Assembly (NCBI GenBank): GCA_001821395.1
Contig: MHLM01000004.1
Coordinates: forward strand, 32,001 to 96,000
Source of the DNA: Candidatus Lloydbacteria bacterium RIFCSPHIGHO2_02_FULL_50_18
GTDB lineage: Bacteria > Patescibacteriota > Minisyncoccia > Phycocordibacterales > UBA6899
Length of the DNA stretch: 64,000 bases
Reading direction: 5' to 3'
Part shown: piece by piece, positions 7,248-26,923 of the stretch
Layout: every line of letters begins with the position of its first letter
Position numbering within the stretch: the stretch's first letter is position 1
Notes under the pieces: model-generated
What the model was told of the DNA's origin: nothing
Database searches by the model: none
The model's input: the letters and a program-made list of their open reading frames with translations, nothing else
Translations under genes and position numbers: made by a program

Positions 7248-8993
7248 ATGAGCTTTCCTCTATTTTTGGCACAAAAAGGATTGTTCCGCGAAGATGATAT
7301 TCCTGAATTGACGAAGGAGGCTGAAAAAGCGCTCGGAGGCATCGACGAGGTGCTTTCTCGCGGTGGTATGAGCGGAGATGATATTCTTACGCTCAAAAGT
7401 GAGTATTATGGAATGCCCGCTCGAACACTTGATGGCACCAAGATTCCCGTTGATGTGCTGAAGTATATTCCTGAAGATTCCGCACGACATTATCAGGTCG
7501 CCCCACTTTCGGTGGAAAATCAGATCCTCGAGATAGGTATCGTCGACCCTGATATGACGCAGGCGCGTGATGCCGTGCAATTCATCGCTGCGAAGCTCGG
7601 AATGCCTTTTAAATTCTTCCTCATTACGCAGACCGACTTCAATCAGATCCTTGTACAGTATCAAAATCTTTCGGGTGAGGTGGGAAAAGCGCTTTCCGAG
7701 CTGGGCACCGGAGAACATAAGGAGCTTACCGAGGCCTCGGCACAGGGTGATGTTTCAACGATCGACGAACATGCACGCGTTGATGTAAAAGGGGAGGAAT
7801 CAAGGATCGTTGAAGATGCACCGGTCACCAAAATCGTTGCCGTGATATTGAAACACGCCGTTGAGGGTAATGCGTCAGATGTGCATATCGAACATACGGG
7901 GGAGAAGGTCCGTGTGCGTTTTCGTGTCGATGGCGTCATGTATACCTCGCTTATTTTGCCCGTGAATGTCCATAGTGCCGTCGTTGCGCGCATCAAAATA
8001 TTGGCCCAGCTGAAATTGGACGAAAAGCGAAAGCCTCAGGATGGGCGCTTCTCTGCGCGGATGGATGACAAGAAAGTTGATTTCCGTGTCTCTACATTCC
8101 CAGCGTATTATGGCGAAAAGGTCGTGATGCGTATTCTGGATACCGGAAAGGGTGTAAAATCGCTCGATCAGATGGGTCTTTCCGCGGAGCATTTAAAGCT
8201 CTTGCGCGATGCGATCAGTACCCCGTACGGTCTTATTTTGGTGACGGGTCCGACCGGATCGGGAAAATCAACAACGCTGTATTCCATGCTGAACGAGCTT
8301 GATCGCGAAAAACGCAATGTGATCAGTCTTGAGGATCCGGTCGAGTACAATATCCCCGGAGTGAGCCAGTCACAAGTACGTCCCGAGATAGGGTATACCT
8401 TTGCGAGCGGACTTCGCTCGATCCTTCGTCAGGACCCCGATATCATCATGGTGGGAGAGATCCGCGATAAAGAGACTGCTCAGCTTGCGATACAGGCGGC
8501 ACTCACCGGGCATCTTGTGTTTTCGACGCTACATACGAACAACGCGGCAGGCGTCATTCCTCGTCTTATCGACATGGAAGTCGACCCATACCTCATCGCA
8601 CCAACCCTCATCATGGCGCTAGGTCAGCGACTGTTGCGTACGATGTGTCCCGAGTCGAAAAGCCCCGTACCGCTGACCGAAAGCATGAGATTGATGATCG
8701 AGAAGCAGCTTTCCGATCTCCCGAAGGAAGCACGCGACCTCATTACAATACCGGATCATGTATATGAAGCCGTCCCGTCTCCCTCGTGTCCGTCAGGAAC
8801 AAAGGGGCGCACGGCCGTATTTGAATTTTTGAAAATGGATCGAGATCTTGAGCATATTGTACTCACAAATCCTGTTGAGCAGGCGGTATATGAGGCGGCG
8901 CGGGCCAAGGGAATGCTTACTATGAAGGATGATGCCATTAAGAAGGCTTTTGAGGGCATAATTCCGTTCGAAGAGATCAACAACATCGTCTGA
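7248..8993 (+). CDS. pilB: type IV pilus assembly ATPase PilB (GspE family)
   Basis: N-terminal GSPII_E-N domain, Walker A GPTGSGKSTT and the His box VFSTLHTNNAAG; 581 aa. Confidence 0.9.
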   Translation: MSFPLFLAQKGLFREDDIPELTKEAEKALGGIDEVLSRGGMSGDDILTLKSEYYGMPARTLDGTKIPVDVLKYIPEDSARHYQVAPLSVENQILEIGIVDPDMTQARDAVQFIAAKLGMPFKFFLITQTDFNQILVQYQNLSGEVGKALSELGTGEHKELTEASAQGDVSTIDEHARVDVKGEESRIVEDAPVTKIVAVILKHAVEGNASDVHIEHTGEKVRVRFRVDGVMYTSLILPVNVHSAVVARIKILAQLKLDEKRKPQDGRFSARMDDKKVDFRVSTFPAYYGEKVVMRILDTGKGVKSLDQMGLSAEHLKLLRDAISTPYGLILVTGPTGSGKSTTLYSMLNELDREKRNVISLEDPVEYNIPGVSQSQVRPEIGYTFASGLRSILRQDPDIIMVGEIRDKETAQLAIQAALTGHLVFSTLHTNNAAGVIPRLIDMEVDPYLIAPTLIMALGQRLLRTMCPESKSPVPLTESMRLMIEKQLSDLPKEARDLITIPDHVYEAVPSPSCPSGTKGRTAVFEFLKMDRDLEHIVLTNPVEQAVYEAARAKGMLTMKDDAIKKAFEGIIPFEEINNIV

Positions 8994-17265: not shown

Positions 17266-17308
17266 TATGCGTACATTTTTACCGATACAAAAGTGCGAGA
17301 GAAGAACG

Positions 17309-17953
17309 ATGATTAACCTCGATACTCCTTGTGGGAGGGGCACACGATCCTACCCCGTCACCGCGGGATTCACCCTTCTGGAGATGCTTGTTACACTGTC
17401 TATCTTTGTGATAATCACTTCAACGCTGTTGATCAGTTATAGTGGCTTCAATAAGCATCTCAGTGTTGATACGCTTGCGCACGAGATCGGTCAATGGATC
17501 CGTGATGCTCAGGTTTCTGCGATGAGCGTGAAGAGTGCGAGGACGGTTGCGGGAATGTATCCGGGCTATGGGGTCCATTTCACACTCAGCGATCCAGGGA
17601 AATTCATTTTTTTTGCCGACTTGGACAGCGATGATCAATACGACCCCGGTGTTTGTGGTGCGGCAGGATCGGAGTGTGAACGAGAAATAGTGTTAACCCA
17701 AGGAAATAAGATCGATGCTCTTTGCGGGGTGACCACGGGTGGTATTTTCACTGCAAAATGTCTTTCGCCGAATGGCGCATCGAGCGTGTTCGATATCGTC
17801 TTTACGCGTCCTGATCCGGATGCTGTTATCAGTGGAGACCTGAACGGTGGGGCTTCGAGCGGATACAGTAGCGCACGCATCACGATCGTTTCGCTCCAGG
17901 GGTATCGTCGCACCGTCGAAGCATGGATCACGGGGCAGATATCTATTCAATGA
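17309..17953 (+). CDS. minor pilin / pseudopilin
   Basis: Prepilin motif G|FTLLEMLVTLSIFVII. The ORF is open from 17267; the ATG was chosen at 17309. Confidence 0.7.
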   Translation: MINLDTPCGRGTRSYPVTAGFTLLEMLVTLSIFVIITSTLLISYSGFNKHLSVDTLAHEIGQWIRDAQVSAMSVKSARTVAGMYPGYGVHFTLSDPGKFIFFADLDSDDQYDPGVCGAAGSECEREIVLTQGNKIDALCGVTTGGIFTAKCLSPNGASSVFDIVFTRPDPDAVISGDLNGGASSGYSSARITIVSLQGYRRTVEAWITGQISIQ

Positions 17954-18612
17954 TCAATTCCAACATGAAATTTTCACTTCGCAACGATAATCAAAAAAAG
18001 ATCAATGACACGGGTGGGTTCACCCTGCTCGAAATGCTCGTTTCGACCTCACTCTTCATCGTCGCCATGCTCGTTATCGTGAGCGCGCTTATCTCGCTCG
18101 AGACGGCAAGTAGAAAAGCGCGAACGATCCGTATTGCCGCAGATAATGTGAGCGCCGCTGTCAGTTCGATGTCGCGTGCAATTCGCATGGGTAGTTATAT
18201 TCATTGCGGGTGCACAGGAACGCACGCAGTGCTTGCTGCGCCGCAGGACTGTGAGATCAGCGGTGCAGGTACGGGAGAGCTCCCGGCTAGTGGTGGTACC
18301 TGTCTTGCATTCGAGGCTCAGAACGGAAATCCGCTGATAGACAGTGATCAGTACGTCTATCGGTTGTGGAACAACCGCATTCAGCGCTCAGTTAATAGTG
18401 GTGACGACTGGCTCGATATGACCGCGCCGGAGATCAGGATCGATGCTCTCGCCTTTTACGTTGGGGGGACGGAACTCAACGAGAACCAGCCGTATGTGAC
18501 CATGCTCGTCCGTGGAACAGCGACCTCTCCGATTGTAAAGATTAATACAACATTCGATATCGAGACCACCGTCGCCGTGCGCACCCCAAACCTTAATCTC
18601 TTCATTCCATGA
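17950..18612 (+). CDS. minor pilin / pseudopilin
   Basis: GG|FTLLEMLVSTSLFIVAML; ATGA overlap with the upstream gene. Confidence 0.7.
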   Translation: MINSNMKFSLRNDNQKKINDTGGFTLLEMLVSTSLFIVAMLVIVSALISLETASRKARTIRIAADNVSAAVSSMSRAIRMGSYIHCGCTGTHAVLAAPQDCEISGAGTGELPASGGTCLAFEAQNGNPLIDSDQYVYRLWNNRIQRSVNSGDDWLDMTAPEIRIDALAFYVGGTELNENQPYVTMLVRGTATSPIVKINTTFDIETTVAVRTPNLNLFIP

Positions 18613-19205
18613 CTTGCATAAAAACAACCAGACCAAGCACCGCTGGATTCACCTTGATCGAAGCACTCGCCTCGATCACGCTTTTGGTGATGGCGATATC
18701 GGGGCCTATGGTGCTTTCCGCACAGAGTCTTCGCGTTTCGCGCGAAGCTCGTCTTCAACTTGAGGCGACGCAGCTTGCGGAGGAAGGTATCGAGATCGTC
18801 CATTCTTTGCGCGACGACAATTCCGCCGATGGCACACCTTGGATGACTGACATTTTGAGTGAGTGTAGTAATCCTGCTCAGCCTTGCATTGCAGATATCA
18901 CTGAACATTCCGGACTGAGCAGTACGGCGTGGCATCATAATGCACTGAAGAGCTGTGCTTCCGCTTGTGCATCCTTGGCGTCGCTCTACAAACACAATGT
19001 AAGCGGAATATATCGGCAAAAGACGAGTGGCTTTGGAGCAGGTTGGACAAAAAGTGATTTCACTCGGCTCATCACGCTGACGGAAGTTGTCGCGGGGCGT
19101 GAAGTGAAGGTGACCTCGACGGTGACGTACAAAGGCTATTCCGGTCAGACACGGACGATCACGGTGACCGGGGATCTCTATAATTGGTTCCCAGACCTCC
19201 ACTAA
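18609..19205 (+). CDS. minor pilin / pseudopilin
   Basis: TAG|FTLIEALASITLLVMAI; start overlaps the upstream stop. Confidence 0.7.
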   Translation: MTCIKTTRPSTAGFTLIEALASITLLVMAISGPMVLSAQSLRVSREARLQLEATQLAEEGIEIVHSLRDDNSADGTPWMTDILSECSNPAQPCIADITEHSGLSSTAWHHNALKSCASACASLASLYKHNVSGIYRQKTSGFGAGWTKSDFTRLITLTEVVAGREVKVTSTVTYKGYSGQTRTITVTGDLYNWFPDLH

Positions 19206-19209
19206 ATGT

Positions 19210-19743
19210 ATGCAAACAATCCGACAAAAATCGTCATGCGAAAAAAAAGAGGGATTCATCCTGCTGCTCACTGTACTGGTCACGAGTGTGATCCTGGCCA
19301 TCAGTTTTAGTATTTTTAGCATCAGTTTGAAGGAGTTGATCATGGCGTCGTTTCTAAAAAATTCCGCACAGGCATTCGCTGCCGCCGATCGCGGGGTCGA
19401 GTGCGCGCTCTTTTGGGATAGAACTCCGACCCCGGTAAATCCGCAAAGCGGAATTACTTATACGATATTTGCCACGTCGAGCGCTTATCAGGCGCCGACA
19501 AATTTATCTAATGCGACCTGTGATGGGATTCAGCTCGATACCTCTGCTTGGTTGGTAAGCGGGCTGACTACGACACAGGGGAAGACCGTATTTCAGATCT
19601 CGTTCGCAGATTTGACCTGCGTAGAGGTATCGGTGCTTAAGGATAGCGGTGAAACAACGGTGACTGCGAACGGTTTCAATACTTGCAACGCATCGAGTGA
19701 GCGAAAAACACAGCGCACTATTCAAGTTCGTACGAATCTGTGA
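19210..19743 (+). CDS. PilX-like minor pilin
   Basis: N-terminal GFILLLTVLVTSVILAISFSIFS hydrophobic segment; last gene of the minor pilin operon. Confidence 0.55.
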   Translation: MQTIRQKSSCEKKEGFILLLTVLVTSVILAISFSIFSISLKELIMASFLKNSAQAFAAADRGVECALFWDRTPTPVNPQSGITYTIFATSSAYQAPTNLSNATCDGIQLDTSAWLVSGLTTTQGKTVFQISFADLTCVEVSVLKDSGETTVTANGFNTCNASSERKTQRTIQVRTNL

Positions 19744-19819: not shown

Positions 19820-21865
<2,046 letters not shown>

Positions 21866-22317: not shown

Positions 22318-22611
22318 ATGAAGACCATGCTCACGAAAGATGATATCAAACACCTCTCCACACTCGCGCGGATCGCGGTTTCGGAAGCAGAGGAGGAAAG
22401 TCTTGCAAAGGACCTTGATGCTGTCCTCGGCTACGTTTCTGAGGTTGCCGCGGTCGCGACCCAAAAAGATGCTATCCCCCCGGCGGGCGATCTGCGTAAT
22501 ATCATGCGTGATGATGACGATGTCCATCCCGGCGGCGAGTTTACCGATATGATCCTCAAGAACGCGCCCGACACTGAAGACGGTTATTTCAAGGTAAAGC
22601 AGATATTTTAA
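22318..22611 (+). CDS. gatC: aspartyl/glutamyl-tRNA amidotransferase subunit C
   Basis: 97 aa with MLTKDDIKHLSTLARIAVSEAEEESLAKDL, the GatC pattern; directly upstream of gatA. Confidence 0.8.
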   Translation: MKTMLTKDDIKHLSTLARIAVSEAEEESLAKDLDAVLGYVSEVAAVATQKDAIPPAGDLRNIMRDDDDVHPGGEFTDMILKNAPDTEDGYFKVKQIF

Positions 22612-22623
22612 TTCGCGCACCGT

Positions 22624-24060
22624 ATGTCTATCGATATTTCAAAACTGACCATCACGCTTGCTGCAAAAGCGCTTCGAGCAAAAGACTTCTCGTCAAAGGA
22701 GCTCACGGAGGCGGTGCTCACGGAGGCAAAAGCAAAGAACAAAGCTATCAACGCGTATGCGGAGATCTTTGATGATGCGATGGCGCTGGCGGCACATGCG
22801 GATGATATGCTCGCGAAGGGGGATGCCCCAATATTGGCGGGTATCCCGATCGCGATCAAAGATAATATGCTCTACAAGGGGCATGAGTCGACCTCCGGCT
22901 CAAAGATATTGCGCGGACATATCGCCGCCTACAGCGGAACGGCAGTGGAGAGATTGCTCTCGTGCAGAGCGGTCATCATCGGGCGTACGAACATGGACGA
23001 GTTTGCAATGGGGAGTTCAACAGAAACATGCTCATATGGACCGGTAAAAAATCCGATTGATACTACGCGCGTACCCGGCGGCTCGTCAGGCGGATCTGCG
23101 GCATCCGTGGTGATGGGTGGGGCGCTTGGTTCTTACGGCTCTGATACCGGTGGTTCTATTCGTCAGCCAGCCTCTTTGTGCGGTCTGGTGGGGCTGAAGC
23201 CCACTTACGGAGCAGTATCGCGCTCAGGGCTTATGTCGCTTGCGTCATCCTTTGACCAGATCGGACCGTTCGGAAAGACCGTGGCCGATGCACAGCTGCT
23301 CTTTGATGCAGTCCGCGGGCATGATCCGATGGATAGTACGACGGTCCCGGAAGGGCATAGTCTGCGAAAGGCGAAGCCGCTTGGTGAAAAATTAACCATC
23401 GGTGTGCCAGAATCACTGATCGCCACGGACGGAATCGATGAAGATGTTCGTGCGAACTTCCGTGCACAGATCGCCGCACTCCGTTCACAGGGGCACACAA
23501 TAAAAAATATTGATCTTCCGCTGATCGCTCGCTCGCTCGCTGTCTACTATATTATTATGCCTGCCGAGGCATCCGCGAACCTTGCACGTTTTGACGGTAT
23601 TCGCTACGGATTCTCTAAAGAGGCGGATAAGCTCATTGAGGTGTACATGAATTCGCGAGGGGAGGGATTTGGTAAAGAGACGCGCAGGAGAATACTGCTC
23701 GGGACATATGTGCTTTCGGCCGGATACTATGATGCATACTACAATAAGGCGGTCGCCGTGCGTCGTATGATTCGTGACGAATTGGATCGAGCGTTCGAGA
23801 GTGTCGACGTGATCGCAACCCCCACCTCACCGTCTCCCGCGTTCAAGATAGGAGAAAAGATCGCTAATCCGCTCAAAATGTACATTGAAGACATTTTTAC
23901 GGTATCGGCAAACATCGCGGGGGTACCGGGAATTTCCGTCCCCGGCGGTACGGTGATCCGTGATGGTGTCTCACTTCCTGTTGGTATCCAATTCATGGCC
24001 GCAGCGTTCCAAGAGGATGCCTTGTTCCGCATGGGAACCGCCATTGAACAAAGTATATGA
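22624..24060 (+). CDS. gatA: aspartyl/glutamyl-tRNA amidotransferase subunit A (amidase signature family)
   Basis: Amidase signature GGSSGGSAASV with catalytic Ser/Lys context; 478 aa. Confidence 0.9.
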   Translation: MSIDISKLTITLAAKALRAKDFSSKELTEAVLTEAKAKNKAINAYAEIFDDAMALAAHADDMLAKGDAPILAGIPIAIKDNMLYKGHESTSGSKILRGHIAAYSGTAVERLLSCRAVIIGRTNMDEFAMGSSTETCSYGPVKNPIDTTRVPGGSSGGSAASVVMGGALGSYGSDTGGSIRQPASLCGLVGLKPTYGAVSRSGLMSLASSFDQIGPFGKTVADAQLLFDAVRGHDPMDSTTVPEGHSLRKAKPLGEKLTIGVPESLIATDGIDEDVRANFRAQIAALRSQGHTIKNIDLPLIARSLAVYYIIMPAEASANLARFDGIRYGFSKEADKLIEVYMNSRGEGFGKETRRRILLGTYVLSAGYYDAYYNKAVAVRRMIRDELDRAFESVDVIATPTSPSPAFKIGEKIANPLKMYIEDIFTVSANIAGVPGISVPGGTVIRDGVSLPVGIQFMAAAFQEDALFRMGTAIEQSI

Positions 24061-24713
24061 GCGAGGAAAAAGGAAACGATAAAGCAAAAGCGAAGCCCCC
24101 CGTCATTATCTCGACCGGGTTGGGGCAACAGGTCGGAGAGATCGTCCTCATCGTATTATTCCTTTCTATTCTTTCCGGTGCGGTAAGTTTGCTGCTCGGT
24201 TTTTTTGGTGATGGCGACATCTACGGTCTTAGGGCTACGTTCGCACATCTTTATGCGGTCGCGAATATGGTAGCAACAGTCATTGCGATGGTCGCTATCG
24301 TCATTGCAATCTATTCCTTCATGCGTATCAGTGAGATCGCGGGGGAAGAGACCAAAAAACTCGGGCTCGCACTCAATTGGAATAGTGAACGGAAGCAAAA
24401 AAATGCGCGCTGGTCGCGCGTAGAAACTTATATGACATCACTGAATCCCTCCGATTGGAAGATCGCGATACTCGAAGCGGATAATATTCTCGACGAGGTG
24501 GTTGAGCGGATGGGTTATATCGGTGAAACACTGGGTGAGCGCATGAAAAAGATCGAGGCGAGTGATTTCCCGTATCTGGAGGATGCATGGACGGCACATA
24601 AGACGCGTAATTCGATCGCGCACAAAGGAACGGATTATGAGCTTAGTCGAAGTGAGGCGGAGCGCGTGATCAACATGTATCATCGCATATTTACGGAATT
24701 GGGTTATTTGTAG
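24057..24713 (+). CDS. membrane-anchored protein with a C-terminal HEPN-like (Rx4H, DUF4145-like) domain
   Basis: Start overlaps the gatA stop (ATGA). Two N-terminal TM helices and a soluble C-terminal domain containing TRNSIAH (Rx4-6H) in a helical context. Confidence 0.45.
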   Translation: MSEEKGNDKAKAKPPVIISTGLGQQVGEIVLIVLFLSILSGAVSLLLGFFGDGDIYGLRATFAHLYAVANMVATVIAMVAIVIAIYSFMRISEIAGEETKKLGLALNWNSERKQKNARWSRVETYMTSLNPSDWKIAILEADNILDEVVERMGYIGETLGERMKKIEASDFPYLEDAWTAHKTRNSIAHKGTDYELSRSEAERVINMYHRIFTELGYL

Positions 24714-24814
24714 GAGAGATTTGATTTTGAACTGAAATATGCTATAAATTGCATACCGTCGATGTATGCAGCATACCTCGACGGTACTCGGATGAATTGG
24801 CGCTTCGCTCATTT

Positions 24815-24867
24815 TCGTGATGATGTTCATAAAAGCAAGCACGCTTTCTTTTATGAACATCATCACG
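24815..24867. terminator. long perfect hairpin (20-bp stem), probable bidirectional terminator
   Basis: TCGTGATGATGTTCATAAAAG...CTTTTATGAACATCATCACGA. Confidence 0.55.
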
Positions 24868-24902
24868 AAAGATCTGCATATTGCGCCGACTCATCATCGT
24901 TT

Positions 24903-24979
24903 GTCGACGTAGCTCAGTTGGTTAGAGCGCGGGACTCATAAGCCCGAGGTCGGAGGATCGTTCCCTCCCGTCGACACCA
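24903..24979 (+). tRNA. tRNA-Met(CAU); the anticodon stem carries three consecutive G-C pairs, so it could be the initiator
   Basis: Acceptor GTCGACG/CGTCGAC, A73, CCA encoded, anticodon loop CTCATAA, anticodon stem CGGGA/GCCCG. Confidence 0.8.
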
Positions 24980-25111: not shown

Positions 25112-25185
25112 GCGGTGGTAGCTCAATTGGTTAGAGCACCCGCCTGTCACGTGGGAGGTTGCGAGTTCGAGTCTCGTCCGCCGCG
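25112..25185 (+). tRNA. tRNA-Asp(GUC)
   Basis: Acceptor GCGGTGG/CCGCCGC, anticodon loop CTGTCAC, T-arm GCGAG-TTCGAGT-CTCGT, G73; CCA not encoded. Confidence 0.85.
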
Positions 25186-25193
25186 CAAATACA

Positions 25194-25219
25194 AAAAAAC
25201 TGCTTTTGCAGTTTTTTTG
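25194..25219 (+). terminator. rho-independent terminator after tRNA-Asp
   Basis: AAAAAAACTGC-tttt-GCAGTTTTTTT. Confidence 0.7.
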
Positions 25220-25234
25220 TGTTTGCACGGTGGA

Positions 25235-25392
25235 GGAAGCATCTGCATGCTTCCGACGAGACTCGAACTCGCCATCACCATGATGAGTACTTCCAATTTC
25301 ATACTCTCTGTAGTCGTTGAAATTTAGGTCGCTCCATAAAGCCTGCGATGACGATCTCGAATAAGCTTCGCTTCTCGTCCGTCCCGTAAATA
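25235..25392 (+). repeat. tRNA-3'-end mimic mini-element, instance 3 (downstream of tRNA-Asp)
   Basis: Hairpin GGAAGCAT-CTGC-ATGCTTCC; GACGAGACTCGAA, the inverted copy of the tRNA-Asp T-loop/T-stem; a ~105-nt insert ending ACGATCTCGAATA; then TCTCGTCCGTCCCGTAAATAC, an 85% copy of the last 21 nt of tRNA-Asp including the downstream AAATAC. Confidence 0.5.
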
Positions 25393-26746: not shown

Positions 26747-26800
26747 TAGAGCATCTCACTCGTAACGAGAAGGTCCGCAGTTCGATCCTGCGAGGCGGCT
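26747..26800 (+). repeat. direct duplicate of the 3' 54 nt of tRNA-Thr(CGU), an attR-like scar
   Basis: AGAGCATCTCACTCGTAACGAGAAGGTCCGCAGTTCGATCCTGCGAGGCGGCTCT is identical to 26557-26609 except the terminal CT versus CCA. It is preceded by ACGATCTCGAAT, the same module end seen at 25356. Confidence 0.8.
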
Positions 26801-26923
26801 CTAGAAAAAGAACGTAGTATTTTTTTGTCCGCCTCAAGAAAATAACTGCTTGTTTTCTGGCAGGATCGAATAGCGAAGCTAAAAAGCCGCGCATATGCGC
26901 GGCTTTGTGTACTCACTCATTTC

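What the first reader, a model, noticed from the sequence alone, without database searches (positions are those of the whole stretch)
24057..24713. Membrane-anchored HEPN-like (Rx4H) protein translationally coupled to gatC-gatA, where gatB would be expected
The ORF overlaps the gatA stop (ATGA) and ends before a 20-bp-stem terminator hairpin. It has two TM helices and a C-terminal helical domain with TRNSIAH. That is the Rx4-6H motif of HEPN RNases, and the DUF4145-like RNxxAH(K)G variant is found in abortive-infection and RM-linked proteins. HEPN domains are typically RNA-cleaving toxins or defence effectors. One fused to TM helices and co-transcribed with the tRNA-amidotransferase operon is unusual. 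It could be a tRNA/rRNA-targeting stress effector or an acquired toxin-like gene.
Basis: partly seen in the sequence, partly recalled or inferred. Interest (0 to 1): 0.55.

Follow-up and report, generated by a model that had tools for sequence, protein, structure and literature searches.

The report
Membrane-anchored HEPN protein fixed after gatCA
The gene after gatA encodes a membrane-anchored protein whose cytoplasmic end has the fold and invariant catalytic motif of HEPN RNA-cutting enzymes; it is not an acquired toxin but an unannotated gene found across a large group of ultra-small (CPR) bacteria, almost always directly behind gatC-gatA.

Summary
ORF 24057-24713 (218 aa) overlaps the gatA stop by ATGA. 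It has two hydrophobic helices and a C-terminal helical domain carrying T-R-N-S-I-A-H (R184...H189).

This does not look like an acquired toxin.
- The window is from Candidatus Lloydbacteria.
- The domain family has 2,743 clusters at 50% identity and no Pfam or NCBIfam name.
- In 79 of 80 species-representative genomes, all labelled as candidate-phyla-radiation (Patescibacteria) lineages, the gene sits directly after gatA, at a median spacing of 15 nt. The 80th has no upstream sequence.
- The domain is about as conserved as GatA and LigA.
- It has no antitoxin-like neighbour and no relatives on plasmids, phages or viral contigs.

Larger members insert bacterial SH3 domains between the two membrane helices.

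Best reading: a membrane-tethered, probably dimer-dependent HEPN endoribonuclease with a core cellular role, co-transcribed with gatCA. RNase activity, the substrate and any link to GatCAB are inferred. The location of gatB is unresolved.

The parts
19856..21865 (+). ligA (NAD-dependent DNA ligase), first gene of the conserved ligA-gatC-gatA-X block
   Evidence: ORF. The syntenic gene carries DNA-ligase Pfam domains in related contigs. A tblastn match is present upstream of gatC in most of the 80 loci.
22318..22611 (+). gatC
   Evidence: ORF. The syntenic gene carries PF02686 GatC in related contigs.
22624..24060 (+). gatA (amidase-family subunit of the tRNA-dependent amidotransferase); its stop overlaps the X start
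   Evidence: ORF. The syntenic gene carries PF01425 Amidase. It lies directly upstream of X in 79 of 80 loci.
24057..24713 (+). Gene X: 218-aa membrane-anchored HEPN protein (identical to OGZ06054.1 / UniRef100_A0A1G2CXH7, 'uncharacterized protein', Candidatus Lloydbacteria)
   Evidence: It is single-copy in the window, with GC 48.6% against 49.4% for the window.
24057..24137 (+). Residues 1-27: Lys-rich, disordered N-terminal tail, predicted cytoplasmic
   Evidence: pLDDT is below 50 for residues 1-21. K-rich N-termini are typical of the two-helix members.
24138..24206 (+). Residues ~28-50: transmembrane helix 1
   Evidence: Hydropathy peak; AlphaFold helix 22-50.
24207..24245 (+). Residues ~51-63: short acidic extracytoplasmic loop. 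This is the site where larger family members carry inserts of up to ~480 aa, with SH3_3 domains detected in four of ten scanned
   Evidence: Alignment; architectures; Pfam SH3_3 hits.
24246..24323 (+). Residues ~64-89: transmembrane helix 2, continuous with HEPN helix 1
   Evidence: Hydropathy peak; AlphaFold models a single helix 56-126.
24378..24710 (+). Residues 108-218: HEPN-fold domain. Helices 1 (to 126), 2 (131-151), an insert with a short helix 159-165, 3 (174-193) and 4 (198-215)
24474..24482 (+). E140-A141-D142 in helix 2: conserved acidic residues at the position where HEPN domains carry their second active-site element
   Evidence: E140 is conserved in 98% and D142 in 100% of 150 divergent sequences. 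The rule comes from PMC3710099. Spatial proximity to the motif was not measured.
24606..24623 (+). R184-N185-S186-I187-A188-H189: the Rx4H motif near the C-terminal end of helix 3
   Evidence: Read directly from the sequence. Invariant; present in 148 of 149 representatives.
24754..24786 (+). First downstream hairpin (16-nt arms, 94% complementary)
24813..24870 (+). Second downstream hairpin (28-nt arms, 96% complementary, no T-run), between X and tRNA-Met; its function as a terminator is unproven
   Evidence: not listed among terminator-like sites.
24903..24979 (+). tRNA-Met (CAT), first gene downstream
   Evidence: The same X / tRNA-Met / tRNA-Asp order is seen in L089 and in a published MAG table.

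Best explanation
Gene X encodes an integral membrane protein: N-terminus in the cytoplasm, two membrane helices, C-terminus in the cytoplasm. The second membrane helix continues directly into a cytoplasmic HEPN domain.

By analogy with characterised HEPN nucleases, it most likely works as a homodimer in which two R-x4-H motifs, helped by the helix-2 acidic residues E140/D142, form a metal-independent endoribonuclease site. That site would cut RNA at the inner face of the membrane.

It is not a mobile toxin. It is a vertically inherited gene found in at least several hundred species-representative genomes labelled as Patescibacteria/CPR lineages (named ones are Parcubacteria-group candidate phyla), transcribed as the last gene of a (ligA)-gatC-gatA-X block. 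I therefore expect a conserved cellular role, either RNA processing or turnover, or a regulated RNA-level response.

The segment between the two membrane helices is the variable part of the family. It ranges from near zero to ~480 aa, with bacterial SH3 domains in four of ten large members scanned. This suggests that in many lineages an extracytoplasmic cue controls the nuclease through the membrane helices, as in Ire1. The Lloydbacteria version in this window is the minimal form without a sensor domain.

**Shown:** the ORF, the overlap with gatA, the hydrophobic helices, the HEPN fold, motif invariance, family size, synteny, and absence from mobile-element collections.

**Inferred:** cytoplasmic orientation, dimerisation, RNase activity, substrate, regulation, and co-transcription.
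For: **Fold**
- The domain-only AlphaFold model has pLDDT 90.5 and pTM 0.82.
- Foldseek's best hits are also HEPN: 1wty, 1wol (probability 0.92), 1ufb, 1ylm.

**Anatomy matches the published HEPN definition (PMC3710099)**
- The motif sits near the end of helix 3.
- Conserved acidic residues sit in helix 2.
- There is an insert between helices 2 and 3.

**Sequence**
- RNxxxH is present in 148 of 149 divergent representatives. R184, N185 and H189 are 100% conserved.
- Weak hits go to many HEPN-clan Pfam models: Swt1-like in 20 of 32 members (best E 4e-5), RiboL-PSP in 10, DUF4145 in 6 (best 2.8e-5), plus pEK499_p136, Cthe2314, Apea and MAE_28990.

**Core-gene status**
- 2,743 clusters at 50% identity match the domain profile.
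- gatA is directly upstream in 79 of 80 loci, at a median spacing of 15 nt with 5 overlaps.
- The gene downstream of X is not conserved.
- Median identity to the window is 48% for X, 54% for GatA, 54% for LigA and 38% for GatC.

**Not mobile or defence-related:**

**Orientation**
- N-terminal tails are K-rich and the stretch after the last membrane helix is K/R-rich.
- SH3_3 domains, usually extracytoplasmic, lie between the two membrane helices in larger members.

**Precedent:** membrane-associated HEPN proteins were predicted to perform stimulus-dependent RNA degradation, by analogy with Ire1 (PMC3710099).
Against: - No biochemical evidence exists for any member.
- The window protein itself reaches no Pfam HEPN model's threshold; its best is HEPN_Apea at E 0.18 for the whole protein and 0.056 for the domain alone.
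- Foldseek E-values are not significant, at 0.29 or higher.
- Four-helix bundles attract many generic structural matches.
- The structure model was built from close homologues only. Residue proximity in the active site and the dimer could not be examined.
- Orientation rests on the positive-inside rule and on domain logic, not on a dedicated predictor.
- A housekeeping HEPN RNase in bacteria has little precedent, since most bacterial HEPN proteins are conflict-system effectors.
- The strict adjacency to gatA could reflect a specific GatCA-linked function rather than a general RNA role.
- The 80 loci examined are the most query-like of at least 581, so more distant members could have other contexts.
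Confidence: 0.55

Rival explanations
1. X is a dedicated partner of the tRNA-dependent amidotransferase. Its HEPN domain might bind or cut tRNA in connection with GatCA(B), for example by tethering the transamidation machinery to the membrane or by destroying mischarged Glu-tRNAGln / Asp-tRNAAsn. It occupies the operon slot that gatB holds in the canonical gatCAB operon.
For: - gatC-gatA-X adjacency holds in 79 of 80 species-level loci, with a median 15-nt spacer, and in 9 of the 10 contigs fetched individually, while the downstream gene varies.
- There is a 4-nt ATGA overlap in the window.
- No gatB is found in the window, in the 10 kb beyond one end of it, or in 90 related loci.
- Structural neighbours include the HEPN toxin of an MNT-HEPN pair (7ae2). 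That this toxin cleaves tRNA is my recollection of Songailiene et al. 2020, which I did not check here.
- A published Patescibacteria MAG table shows a partial gatA and the following 528-nt hypothetical gene both expressed in one of the two expression columns and both zero in the other.
Against: - One contig has ligA-X-tRNA-Met-tRNA-Asp with no gatC or gatA between them (L089). It is a frameshift-ridden assembly.
- ligA, which is functionally unrelated, is equally part of the block, so conserved order may only reflect an old housekeeping operon.
- The identities of X and GatA to the window proteins are uncorrelated across loci (r = -0.04).
- GatC is retained, which implies (my inference) that GatB still exists elsewhere in these genomes.
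Confidence: 0.15
2. X is a toxin or abortive-infection/defence effector: a HEPN RNase held in check until phage infection or stress, then killing or arresting the cell.
For: - Most bacterial HEPN proteins belong to toxin-antitoxin, Abi, CRISPR or restriction-linked systems (PMC3710099).
- The nearest structures include HEPN toxins, Csm6/Csx1, AbiA, LsoA and RnlA.
- Weak sequence affinity to DUF4145 and to Abi-related Swt1-like models.
Against: - The position is fixed and vertically inherited across the candidate-phyla-radiation genomes examined.
- Conservation is comparable to that of GatA and LigA.
- There is no MNT or other antitoxin-like neighbour, no PADLOC match, and no relatives in plasmids, phages or viral contigs.
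- Composition is native and the gene is single-copy in the window.
Confidence: 0.1
3. The HEPN domain is non-catalytic. It would be a nucleotide- or protein-binding module (as in kanamycin nucleotidyltransferase, GlnE or sacsin) on a membrane protein whose real role is structural or signalling.
For: - Conservation covers much more than the motif, including W119, D133-W134, Y154, G156, F171, W178 and H181. That would fit a conserved binding surface.
Against: Per PMC3710099, families such as KNTase and GlnD/GlnE lack the Rx4-6H motif. Here R, N and H are invariant, and the helix-2 acidic residues are conserved as well.
Confidence: 0.12

Closest known systems
HEPN superfamily (Pfam clan CL0291), especially the Swt1-like (PF18731) and DUF4145 (PF13643) branches
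   Same: - Four-helix up-and-down bundle with an insert between helices 2 and 3.
[quoted passage not shown]
- Relatives give weak hits to these models.
   Different: - No member tested reaches a curated Pfam threshold that I could verify. The window protein scores 13-14 bits against cut-offs of 24-27.
- The family has its own extended signature, S-x-N-P-S-D-W...E-A-D...G-Y-x-G...A-W-E-A-H-K-x-R-N-x-I-A-H-x-G.
- It is confined, as far as sampled, to genomes labelled as Patescibacteria/CPR lineages (named ones are Parcubacteria-group candidate phyla).
Bacterial membrane-associated HEPN proteins predicted by Anantharaman et al. 2013 (PMC3710099), including DUF4145-like proteins fused to 'TM and SH3' in Firmicutes
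   Same: - Membrane segments plus a cytoplasmic HEPN domain with an intact motif.
- SH3 domains in four of ten large members scanned.
- The proposed logic of stimulus-dependent RNA cleavage at the membrane.
   Different: - The three described groups have other architectures: a single helix with a WP signature; a helix preceded by an alpha-helical domain; or an N-terminal HEPN with a C-terminal zinc ribbon.
- None is described as a core gene or as linked to gatCA.
- Homology to the Firmicutes TM-SH3 proteins was not tested here.
Ire1 / RNase L (KEN-type HEPN nucleases)
   Same: Works alike in outline: a sensor domain on the far side of a membrane (Ire1), a membrane span, and a HEPN nuclease activated by dimerisation. 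Ribonuc_2-5A gave one weak hit among relatives.
   Different: There is no kinase domain and two membrane helices instead of one. The window's protein has essentially no sensor domain. This is an analogy only, not membership.
HepT toxins of HEPN-MNT toxin-antitoxin pairs (e.g. 5yep, 7ae2, 8xdj)
   Different: There is no adjacent MNT antitoxin gene in any context examined. X is membrane-anchored, syntenic and vertically inherited. Sequence identity in the structural alignments is 6%.
RNase Y (membrane-anchored endoribonuclease of Firmicutes)
   Same: A possible functional analogue: an N-terminal membrane anchor holding a cytoplasmic endoribonuclease with a housekeeping role. This comparison is from my own knowledge.
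   Different: The catalytic domain is unrelated (HD/KH, metal-dependent). Whether these genomes have or lack RNase Y or RNase E was not examined.
GatB (third subunit of GatCAB)
   Same: Only the operon position after gatA.
   Different: There are no GatB_N or GatB_Yqey domains and no similarity to a validated GatB probe. X is 218 aa against ~480 aa for GatB, and has a different fold.

Membership tests
HEPN superfamily | Four-helix up-and-down bundle, commonly with an insert between helices 2 and 3 | tested here: met
HEPN superfamily | Rx4-6H motif at the end of helix 3, conserved in the family | tested here: met
   R184-x4-H189 lies in helix 174-193. It is invariant and present in 148 of 149 representatives. 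The rule is from PMC3710099.
HEPN superfamily | Conserved acidic or polar residue in helix 2, close to the motif | tested here: inconclusive
   E140 (98%) and D142 (100%) are conserved in helix 131-151.
HEPN superfamily | Significant sequence match to a HEPN-clan profile | tested here: inconclusive
   The window protein gives only sub-threshold hits: HEPN_Apea 12.7-14.3 bits against a cut-off of 24.4, and Swt1 13.2 against 27.5. Among 32 diverse relatives, 20 hit Swt1-like (best E 4e-5) and 6 hit DUF4145 (best 2.8e-5). No profile-profile search against Pfam or PDB was available.
HEPN superfamily | Metal-independent endoribonuclease activity dependent on dimerisation | not testable with these tools
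   Needs biochemistry.
DUF4145 (PF13643) | Score above Pfam's gathering threshold | tested here: not met
   There is no DUF4145 hit for the window protein even at E <= 10. Only weak hits appear in 6 of 26 and 6 of 32 relatives.
HEPN-MNT (HepT/MntA) toxin-antitoxin | Adjacent minimal nucleotidyltransferase antitoxin gene | tested here: not met
   The upstream neighbour is gatA in 79 of 80 loci. Downstream genes are variable and none forms a recurrent partner.
Anti-phage defence / abortive-infection effector | Match to known defence-system models; patchy distribution; association with mobile elements or defence islands | tested here: not met
   PADLOC gives no hit. There are no relatives in plasmids, phages or viral contigs. 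The housekeeping context is fixed across the candidate-phyla-radiation genomes examined.
GatB | GatB_N catalytic and GatB_Yqey tail domains | tested here: not met
   No such Pfam hits. A GatB probe that matches 2df4_B at 1064 bits finds nothing in the window or the loci.
Ire1-like membrane sensor RNase | Sensor domain, single membrane span, kinase domain, KEN nuclease | tested here: not met
   There is no kinase domain, there are two membrane helices, and the loop in this protein is only 13 residues. The resemblance is functional only.

The most novel reading that the evidence does not exclude
The HEPN protein is a functional component of tRNA-dependent amidation in these bacteria. It would be a membrane-tethered tRNA-binding or tRNA-cleaving subunit that has taken over the gatB slot of the operon. 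For example, it could be a quality-control nuclease that removes mischarged Glu-tRNAGln / Asp-tRNAAsn. More radically, it could be part of a non-canonical amidotransferase in lineages where gatB proves to be absent.
Probability: 0.1. Interest if true: 0.85.

Novelty: new variant of a known kind. Interest (0 to 1): 0.6.

Why it matters
Bacterial HEPN domains are known almost entirely as weapons: toxins, Abi proteins and CRISPR ancillary nucleases. Here a HEPN protein with an intact catalytic motif behaves like a core gene.
- It occurs in at least several hundred species-representative genomes of candidate-phyla-radiation bacteria and is about as conserved as GatA and LigA.
- It is locked into an operon with translation and replication genes.
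- It is anchored in the membrane, with a sensor-like variable outer segment.

If it is an active RNase, it would be a candidate for a main membrane-bound RNA-processing or RNA-level signalling enzyme in bacteria with tiny genomes and largely unknown RNA metabolism. It would also be a bacterial counterpart of the Ire1 design.

The family is large (2,743 clusters at 50% identity), has no name in Pfam or NCBIfam, and did not turn up in the literature searched. Defining it would annotate thousands of 'hypothetical proteins'. The replacement of gatB by this gene in the gatCA operon also raises a concrete, checkable question about how these organisms organise tRNA amidation.

Tried and rejected
**Searches that gave nothing decisive**
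1. Direct Pfam, NCBIfam and PADLOC scans of the protein gave nothing above threshold.
2. A profile search of PDB sequences gave no HEPN hit; the two hits were noise.
3. Foldseek against PDB with the full-length model and with the domain model gave E-values of 0.29 or higher. Only the ranking of HEPN entries is informative.
4. The afdb50 fold library was unavailable.

**Locating gatB** (unresolved)
5. It is not in the window's large ORFs, not in the window or 87 loci by tblastn, not in three further loci, and not in the 10 kb beyond one window end. The look-up at the other end failed.
6. Supplementary gene tables of two Patescibacteria papers were truncated and inconclusive. One MAG table shows gatA but no gatB, glnS or asnS in the stored part.
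7. Literature searches for a membrane HEPN in Patescibacteria, or for gatB in CPR, found nothing relevant.

**Ideas rejected**
8. X is a divergent GatB or YqeY tail domain. The fold and all sequence tests disagree.
9. The motif is a chance occurrence in a helical protein. Its invariance across the family rules this out.
10. The gene was acquired horizontally. Composition, synteny and its absence from mobile-element collections argue against it.
11. The downstream hairpin is a repeated element. It is unique in the window, with no Rfam match above threshold.
Full report
**1. What is there**

The window carries, on the + strand, ligA (19856-21865), gatC (22318-22611), gatA (22624-24060) and an ORF of 218 codons (24057-24713). 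The ORF's ATG overlaps the gatA stop as ATGA. Downstream come two hairpins and then tRNA-Met and tRNA-Asp.

The protein is identical to a 'hypothetical protein' of Candidatus Lloydbacteria, OGZ06054.1 / UniRef100_A0A1G2CXH7. The window therefore comes from a member of the candidate phyla radiation (Patescibacteria, Parcubacteria group).

The protein has four parts:
- a Lys-rich disordered N-terminus;
- two hydrophobic helices, at about residues 28-49 and 66-89;
- a short acidic loop between them;
- a C-terminal helical domain containing T-R-N-S-I-A-H, with R184 to H189 encoded at 24606-24623.

The big hairpin (24813-24870, 28-nt arms) starts 100 nt after the stop codon and has no T-run, so calling it a terminator is unproven.

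**2. Is the C-terminal domain HEPN?**

Direct scans give only a weak HEPN_Apea hit at E 0.18, nothing useful in NCBIfam and nothing in PADLOC.

Structure is more informative. With an alignment of 30 homologues, AlphaFold models the whole protein at pLDDT 83. The second membrane helix runs without a break into the first helix of the domain, as a single helix 56-126. The domain alone (residues 95-218) is modelled at pLDDT 90.5 and pTM 0.82.

- the HEPN halves of kanamycin nucleotidyltransferase and GlnE;
- Roquin, Csm6, Csx1, sacsin, AbiA, LsoA, RnlA and Las1.

Foldseek ranks HEPN entries first too (1wty, 1wol, 1ufb, 1ylm), but with non-significant E-values.

The anatomy fits the published definition in PMC3710099. 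The Rx4-6H motif lies at the end of helix 3; here R184-H189 sits in helix 174-193. A conserved acidic residue lies in helix 2; here E140 and D142 sit in helix 131-151. There is an insert between helices 2 and 3; here residues 152-173.

When diverse family members are scanned one by one, weak hits pile up on HEPN-clan models:

| Pfam model | Members hit |
|---|---|
| Swt1-like | 20 of 32 |
| RiboL-PSP | 10 of 32 |
| DUF4145 | 6 of 32 |
| pEK499_p136 | 6 of 32 |
| Cthe2314, Apea, MAE_28990 | 1-3 each |

I conclude that the domain is a HEPN domain of a family not captured by current Pfam models, with its closest affinity to the Swt1-like and DUF4145-like branches.

**3. Is the motif conserved?**

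In 30 homologues, R184, N185, A188 and H189 are invariant.

A profile of the domain, searched against 1.84 billion cluster representatives, finds 2,743 clusters at E <= 1e-3 and 1,644 at E <= 1e-10. The domain is always at the C-terminus, in proteins of 128-696 aa. Of the 149 best representatives, each from a different 50%-identity cluster, 148 carry RNxxxH about 34 residues from the end.

The family signature extends well beyond the motif. W119, S128, D133-W134, E140-A141-D142, Y154, G156, G160, K164, F171 and A177-W178-x-A180-H181-K182-x-R184-N185-x-I187-A188-H189-x-G191 are each conserved in at least 90% of sequences.

**4. Architecture and orientation**

Almost every member has one or two hydrophobic segments before the domain.

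- In the two-helix type, to which this protein belongs, the N-terminus is Lys-rich and the loop between the helices is acidic.
- In the one-helix type, the N-terminal ~40 residues are acidic and carry a recurring LNLEYxF-like motif.
- In both types the stretch after the last helix is K/R-rich.

By the positive-inside rule the HEPN domain is cytoplasmic.

In larger members the loop between the helices grows to as much as ~480 aa. It contains bacterial SH3 (SH3_3) domains in four of the ten large members scanned. These are typically extracytoplasmic cell-wall-binding modules (my knowledge), which again places the HEPN domain inside.

The outer segment is thus the variable part and the inner nuclease domain the constant part. 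That is the pattern of a receptor-like protein. The window's protein, with a 13-residue loop, is the minimal form.

**5. Distribution and genomic context**

All 80 loci that were fetched and listed come from records labelled as Patescibacteria/CPR lineages or as unclassified bacteria: Nomura-, Vogel-, Zambryski-, Kaiser-, Campbell-, Taylor- and Lloydbacteria, 'Paceibacterota' and Minisyncoccia.

In the 80 best loci:
- gatA lies directly upstream in 79, and the 80th has no upstream DNA;
- the gatA-stop to X-start distance has a median of 15 nt, with five overlaps;
- gatC precedes gatA in most, and ligA precedes gatC in most;
- the gene downstream of X is not conserved.

The same order holds for the 696-aa SH3-bearing member (L010). 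Among the ten contigs fetched individually, nine show gatA directly upstream of X. In P0123 the block is preceded by a Trp-repressor-like gene instead of ligA.

The tenth contig, L089, is an exception. It is a frameshift-rich assembly that has ligA, a 107-aa ORF, X, tRNA-Met and tRNA-Asp, with no gatC or gatA.

Median identity of the loci's proteins to the window's proteins:

| Protein | Median identity |
|---|---|
| LigA | 54% |
| GatA | 54% |
| X (best-matching segment, mainly the HEPN domain) | 48% |
| GatC | 38% |

The gene has native GC content and is single-copy in the window. No relatives exist in 72,556 plasmids, 50,697 phage records or 2.9 million viral contigs. No antitoxin-like or nucleotidyltransferase neighbour recurs.

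This is the profile of a vertically inherited core gene, not of an acquired toxin or defence gene.

**6. gatB**

X is not GatB; it has no GatB domains. I wrote out the S. aureus GatB sequence from memory and confirmed that it matches PDB 2df4_B over its full length at 1064 bits. This probe finds no gatB in the window, in 90 related loci, or in the 10 kb beyond one end of the window.

Where gatB lies in these genomes could not be determined with the available caps. A published annotation table for a Patescibacteria MAG lists a partial gatA followed by a 528-nt hypothetical gene, tRNA-Met, tRNA-Met and tRNA-Asp. That is the same order as in this window, and both genes show expression in the first of the table's two expression columns and zero in the second. 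The stored table is truncated and contains no gatB, glnS or asnS entries (PMC10936435 supplement). I could not verify that this hypothetical gene is X, and the absence of gatB there is inconclusive.

Retention of GatC, which in known GatCAB structures bridges GatA and GatB (my knowledge), suggests that GatB exists elsewhere in these genomes.

**7. Most likely mechanism**

I favour a membrane-tethered HEPN endoribonuclease. The protein would insert with both ends in the cytoplasm. Its HEPN domain, rigidly connected to the second membrane helix, would pair with a second copy so that two R-x4-H motifs and the helix-2 acidic residues form a metal-independent RNA-cleaving site. This is the arrangement in characterised HEPN nucleases (established knowledge; not shown here).

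Its universal presence, conservation and operon context argue for a conserved cellular role. The variable outer segment argues that activity is controlled from outside in many lineages. This is the logic proposed for membrane-associated HEPN proteins by analogy with Ire1 (PMC3710099).

The substrate is unknown.

Rivals:
- a specific partner of the amidotransferase or of its tRNA substrates (supported by the strict adjacency, weakened by L089 and by ligA being equally syntenic);
- a toxin or defence effector (weakly supported, see section 5);
- a non-catalytic HEPN module (disfavoured by the invariant motif).

**8. Comparison with what is known, and novelty**

The kind is known: the HEPN superfamily, and predicted bacterial membrane-associated HEPN proteins, including 'TM and SH3' fusions of DUF4145-like domains in Firmicutes.

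The following appear to be undescribed:
- this particular family;
- its signature and its architecture of two membrane helices with a variable loop;
- its occurrence, as far as sampled, only in genomes labelled as Patescibacteria/CPR lineages;
- its fixation behind gatC-gatA.

There is no Pfam or NCBIfam model for it. Sources call the proteins hypothetical, and one JGI record mislabels a member as a mechanosensitive channel. Literature searches found nothing. I rate it a new variant of a known kind.

**9. Caveats**

- All functional statements are inferred.
- The structure is a prediction from closely related sequences.
- The 80 loci are the most query-like of at least 581.
- Some taxon labels are unverified.
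- Orientation rests on simple rules.
- The position of gatB is unresolved.

Noticed in passing
window 24754-24786 and 24813-24870: Two strong hairpins lie between the X stop codon and tRNA-Met, with 16-nt and 28-nt arms. The region's fold z-score is -8.5. Neither has a T-run, the longer one is unique in the window, and there is no Rfam family above threshold. They could be a processing site or a factor-dependent terminator between the mRNA and the tRNA cluster.
   Followed up: partly
window 25154-25178 / 25255-25279 and 25174-25237: The 3' half of tRNA-Asp (25112-25186) is 88% complementary to a 25-nt stretch 76 nt downstream, possibly a tRNA fragment on the other strand. A 30-nt-arm hairpin (87% complementary), with A-rich and T-rich tracts within its arms, overlaps the tRNA's 3' end and extends about 50 nt beyond it.
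   Followed up: no
L089 3117-8223 (ENA ERZ1286166 contig_5789): This is the one related contig where X follows ligA with no gatC or gatA between them. It still has tRNA-Met and tRNA-Asp downstream, as in the window. The assembly is full of frameshifts (ligA is split into five ORFs), so the exception needs checking.
   Followed up: partly
family members P0126, P0132, P0133, P0135, P0146, P0152, P0156 (N-termini): The one-helix subtype of the family carries a recurring acidic/hydrophobic N-terminal motif (FxPxxLNLEYxF-like) ahead of the membrane helix. It is predicted to face outward and its function is unknown.
   Followed up: no
family members P0255, P0187, P0211, P0259 (and L010 2234-4321, 696 aa): Large family members carry bacterial SH3 (SH3_3) domains and Tudor-like repeats between the two membrane helices (P0255, P0187, P0211, P0259). 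L010 itself has a ~480-aa insert between the helices but no Pfam domain was detected in it. This suggests a cell-wall or host-surface sensing ectodomain coupled to the HEPN domain.
   Followed up: partly
P0088: A JGI record annotates one family member as 'large-conductance mechanosensitive channel'. This is almost certainly a mis-annotation driven by the membrane helices.
   Followed up: no
PMC10936435 supplementary file 4, genes PMX_810_sub_00813-00818: A published Patescibacteria MAG shows a partial gatA, a 528-nt hypothetical gene, tRNA-Met, tRNA-Met and tRNA-Asp, with the first two genes expressed in the first of the two expression columns and zero in the second. The stored, truncated table has no gatB, glnS or asnS entries.
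   Followed up: partly
window 7248-8993 and 17267-19743: A type II/IV secretion ATPase (T2SSE plus MshEN domains) lies in the window. A run of small genes sits upstream of ligA; their counterparts in related contigs carry weak N_methyl (pseudopilin) signals. A type IV pilus cluster therefore sits next to the ligA-gatCA-X block.
   Followed up: no
window 26775-26910: A weak, sub-threshold Rfam match to Leu_leader (29 bits against a gathering score of 50, E 0.005) lies in a region next to the tRNA-Thr genes. It is probably chance.
   Followed up: no
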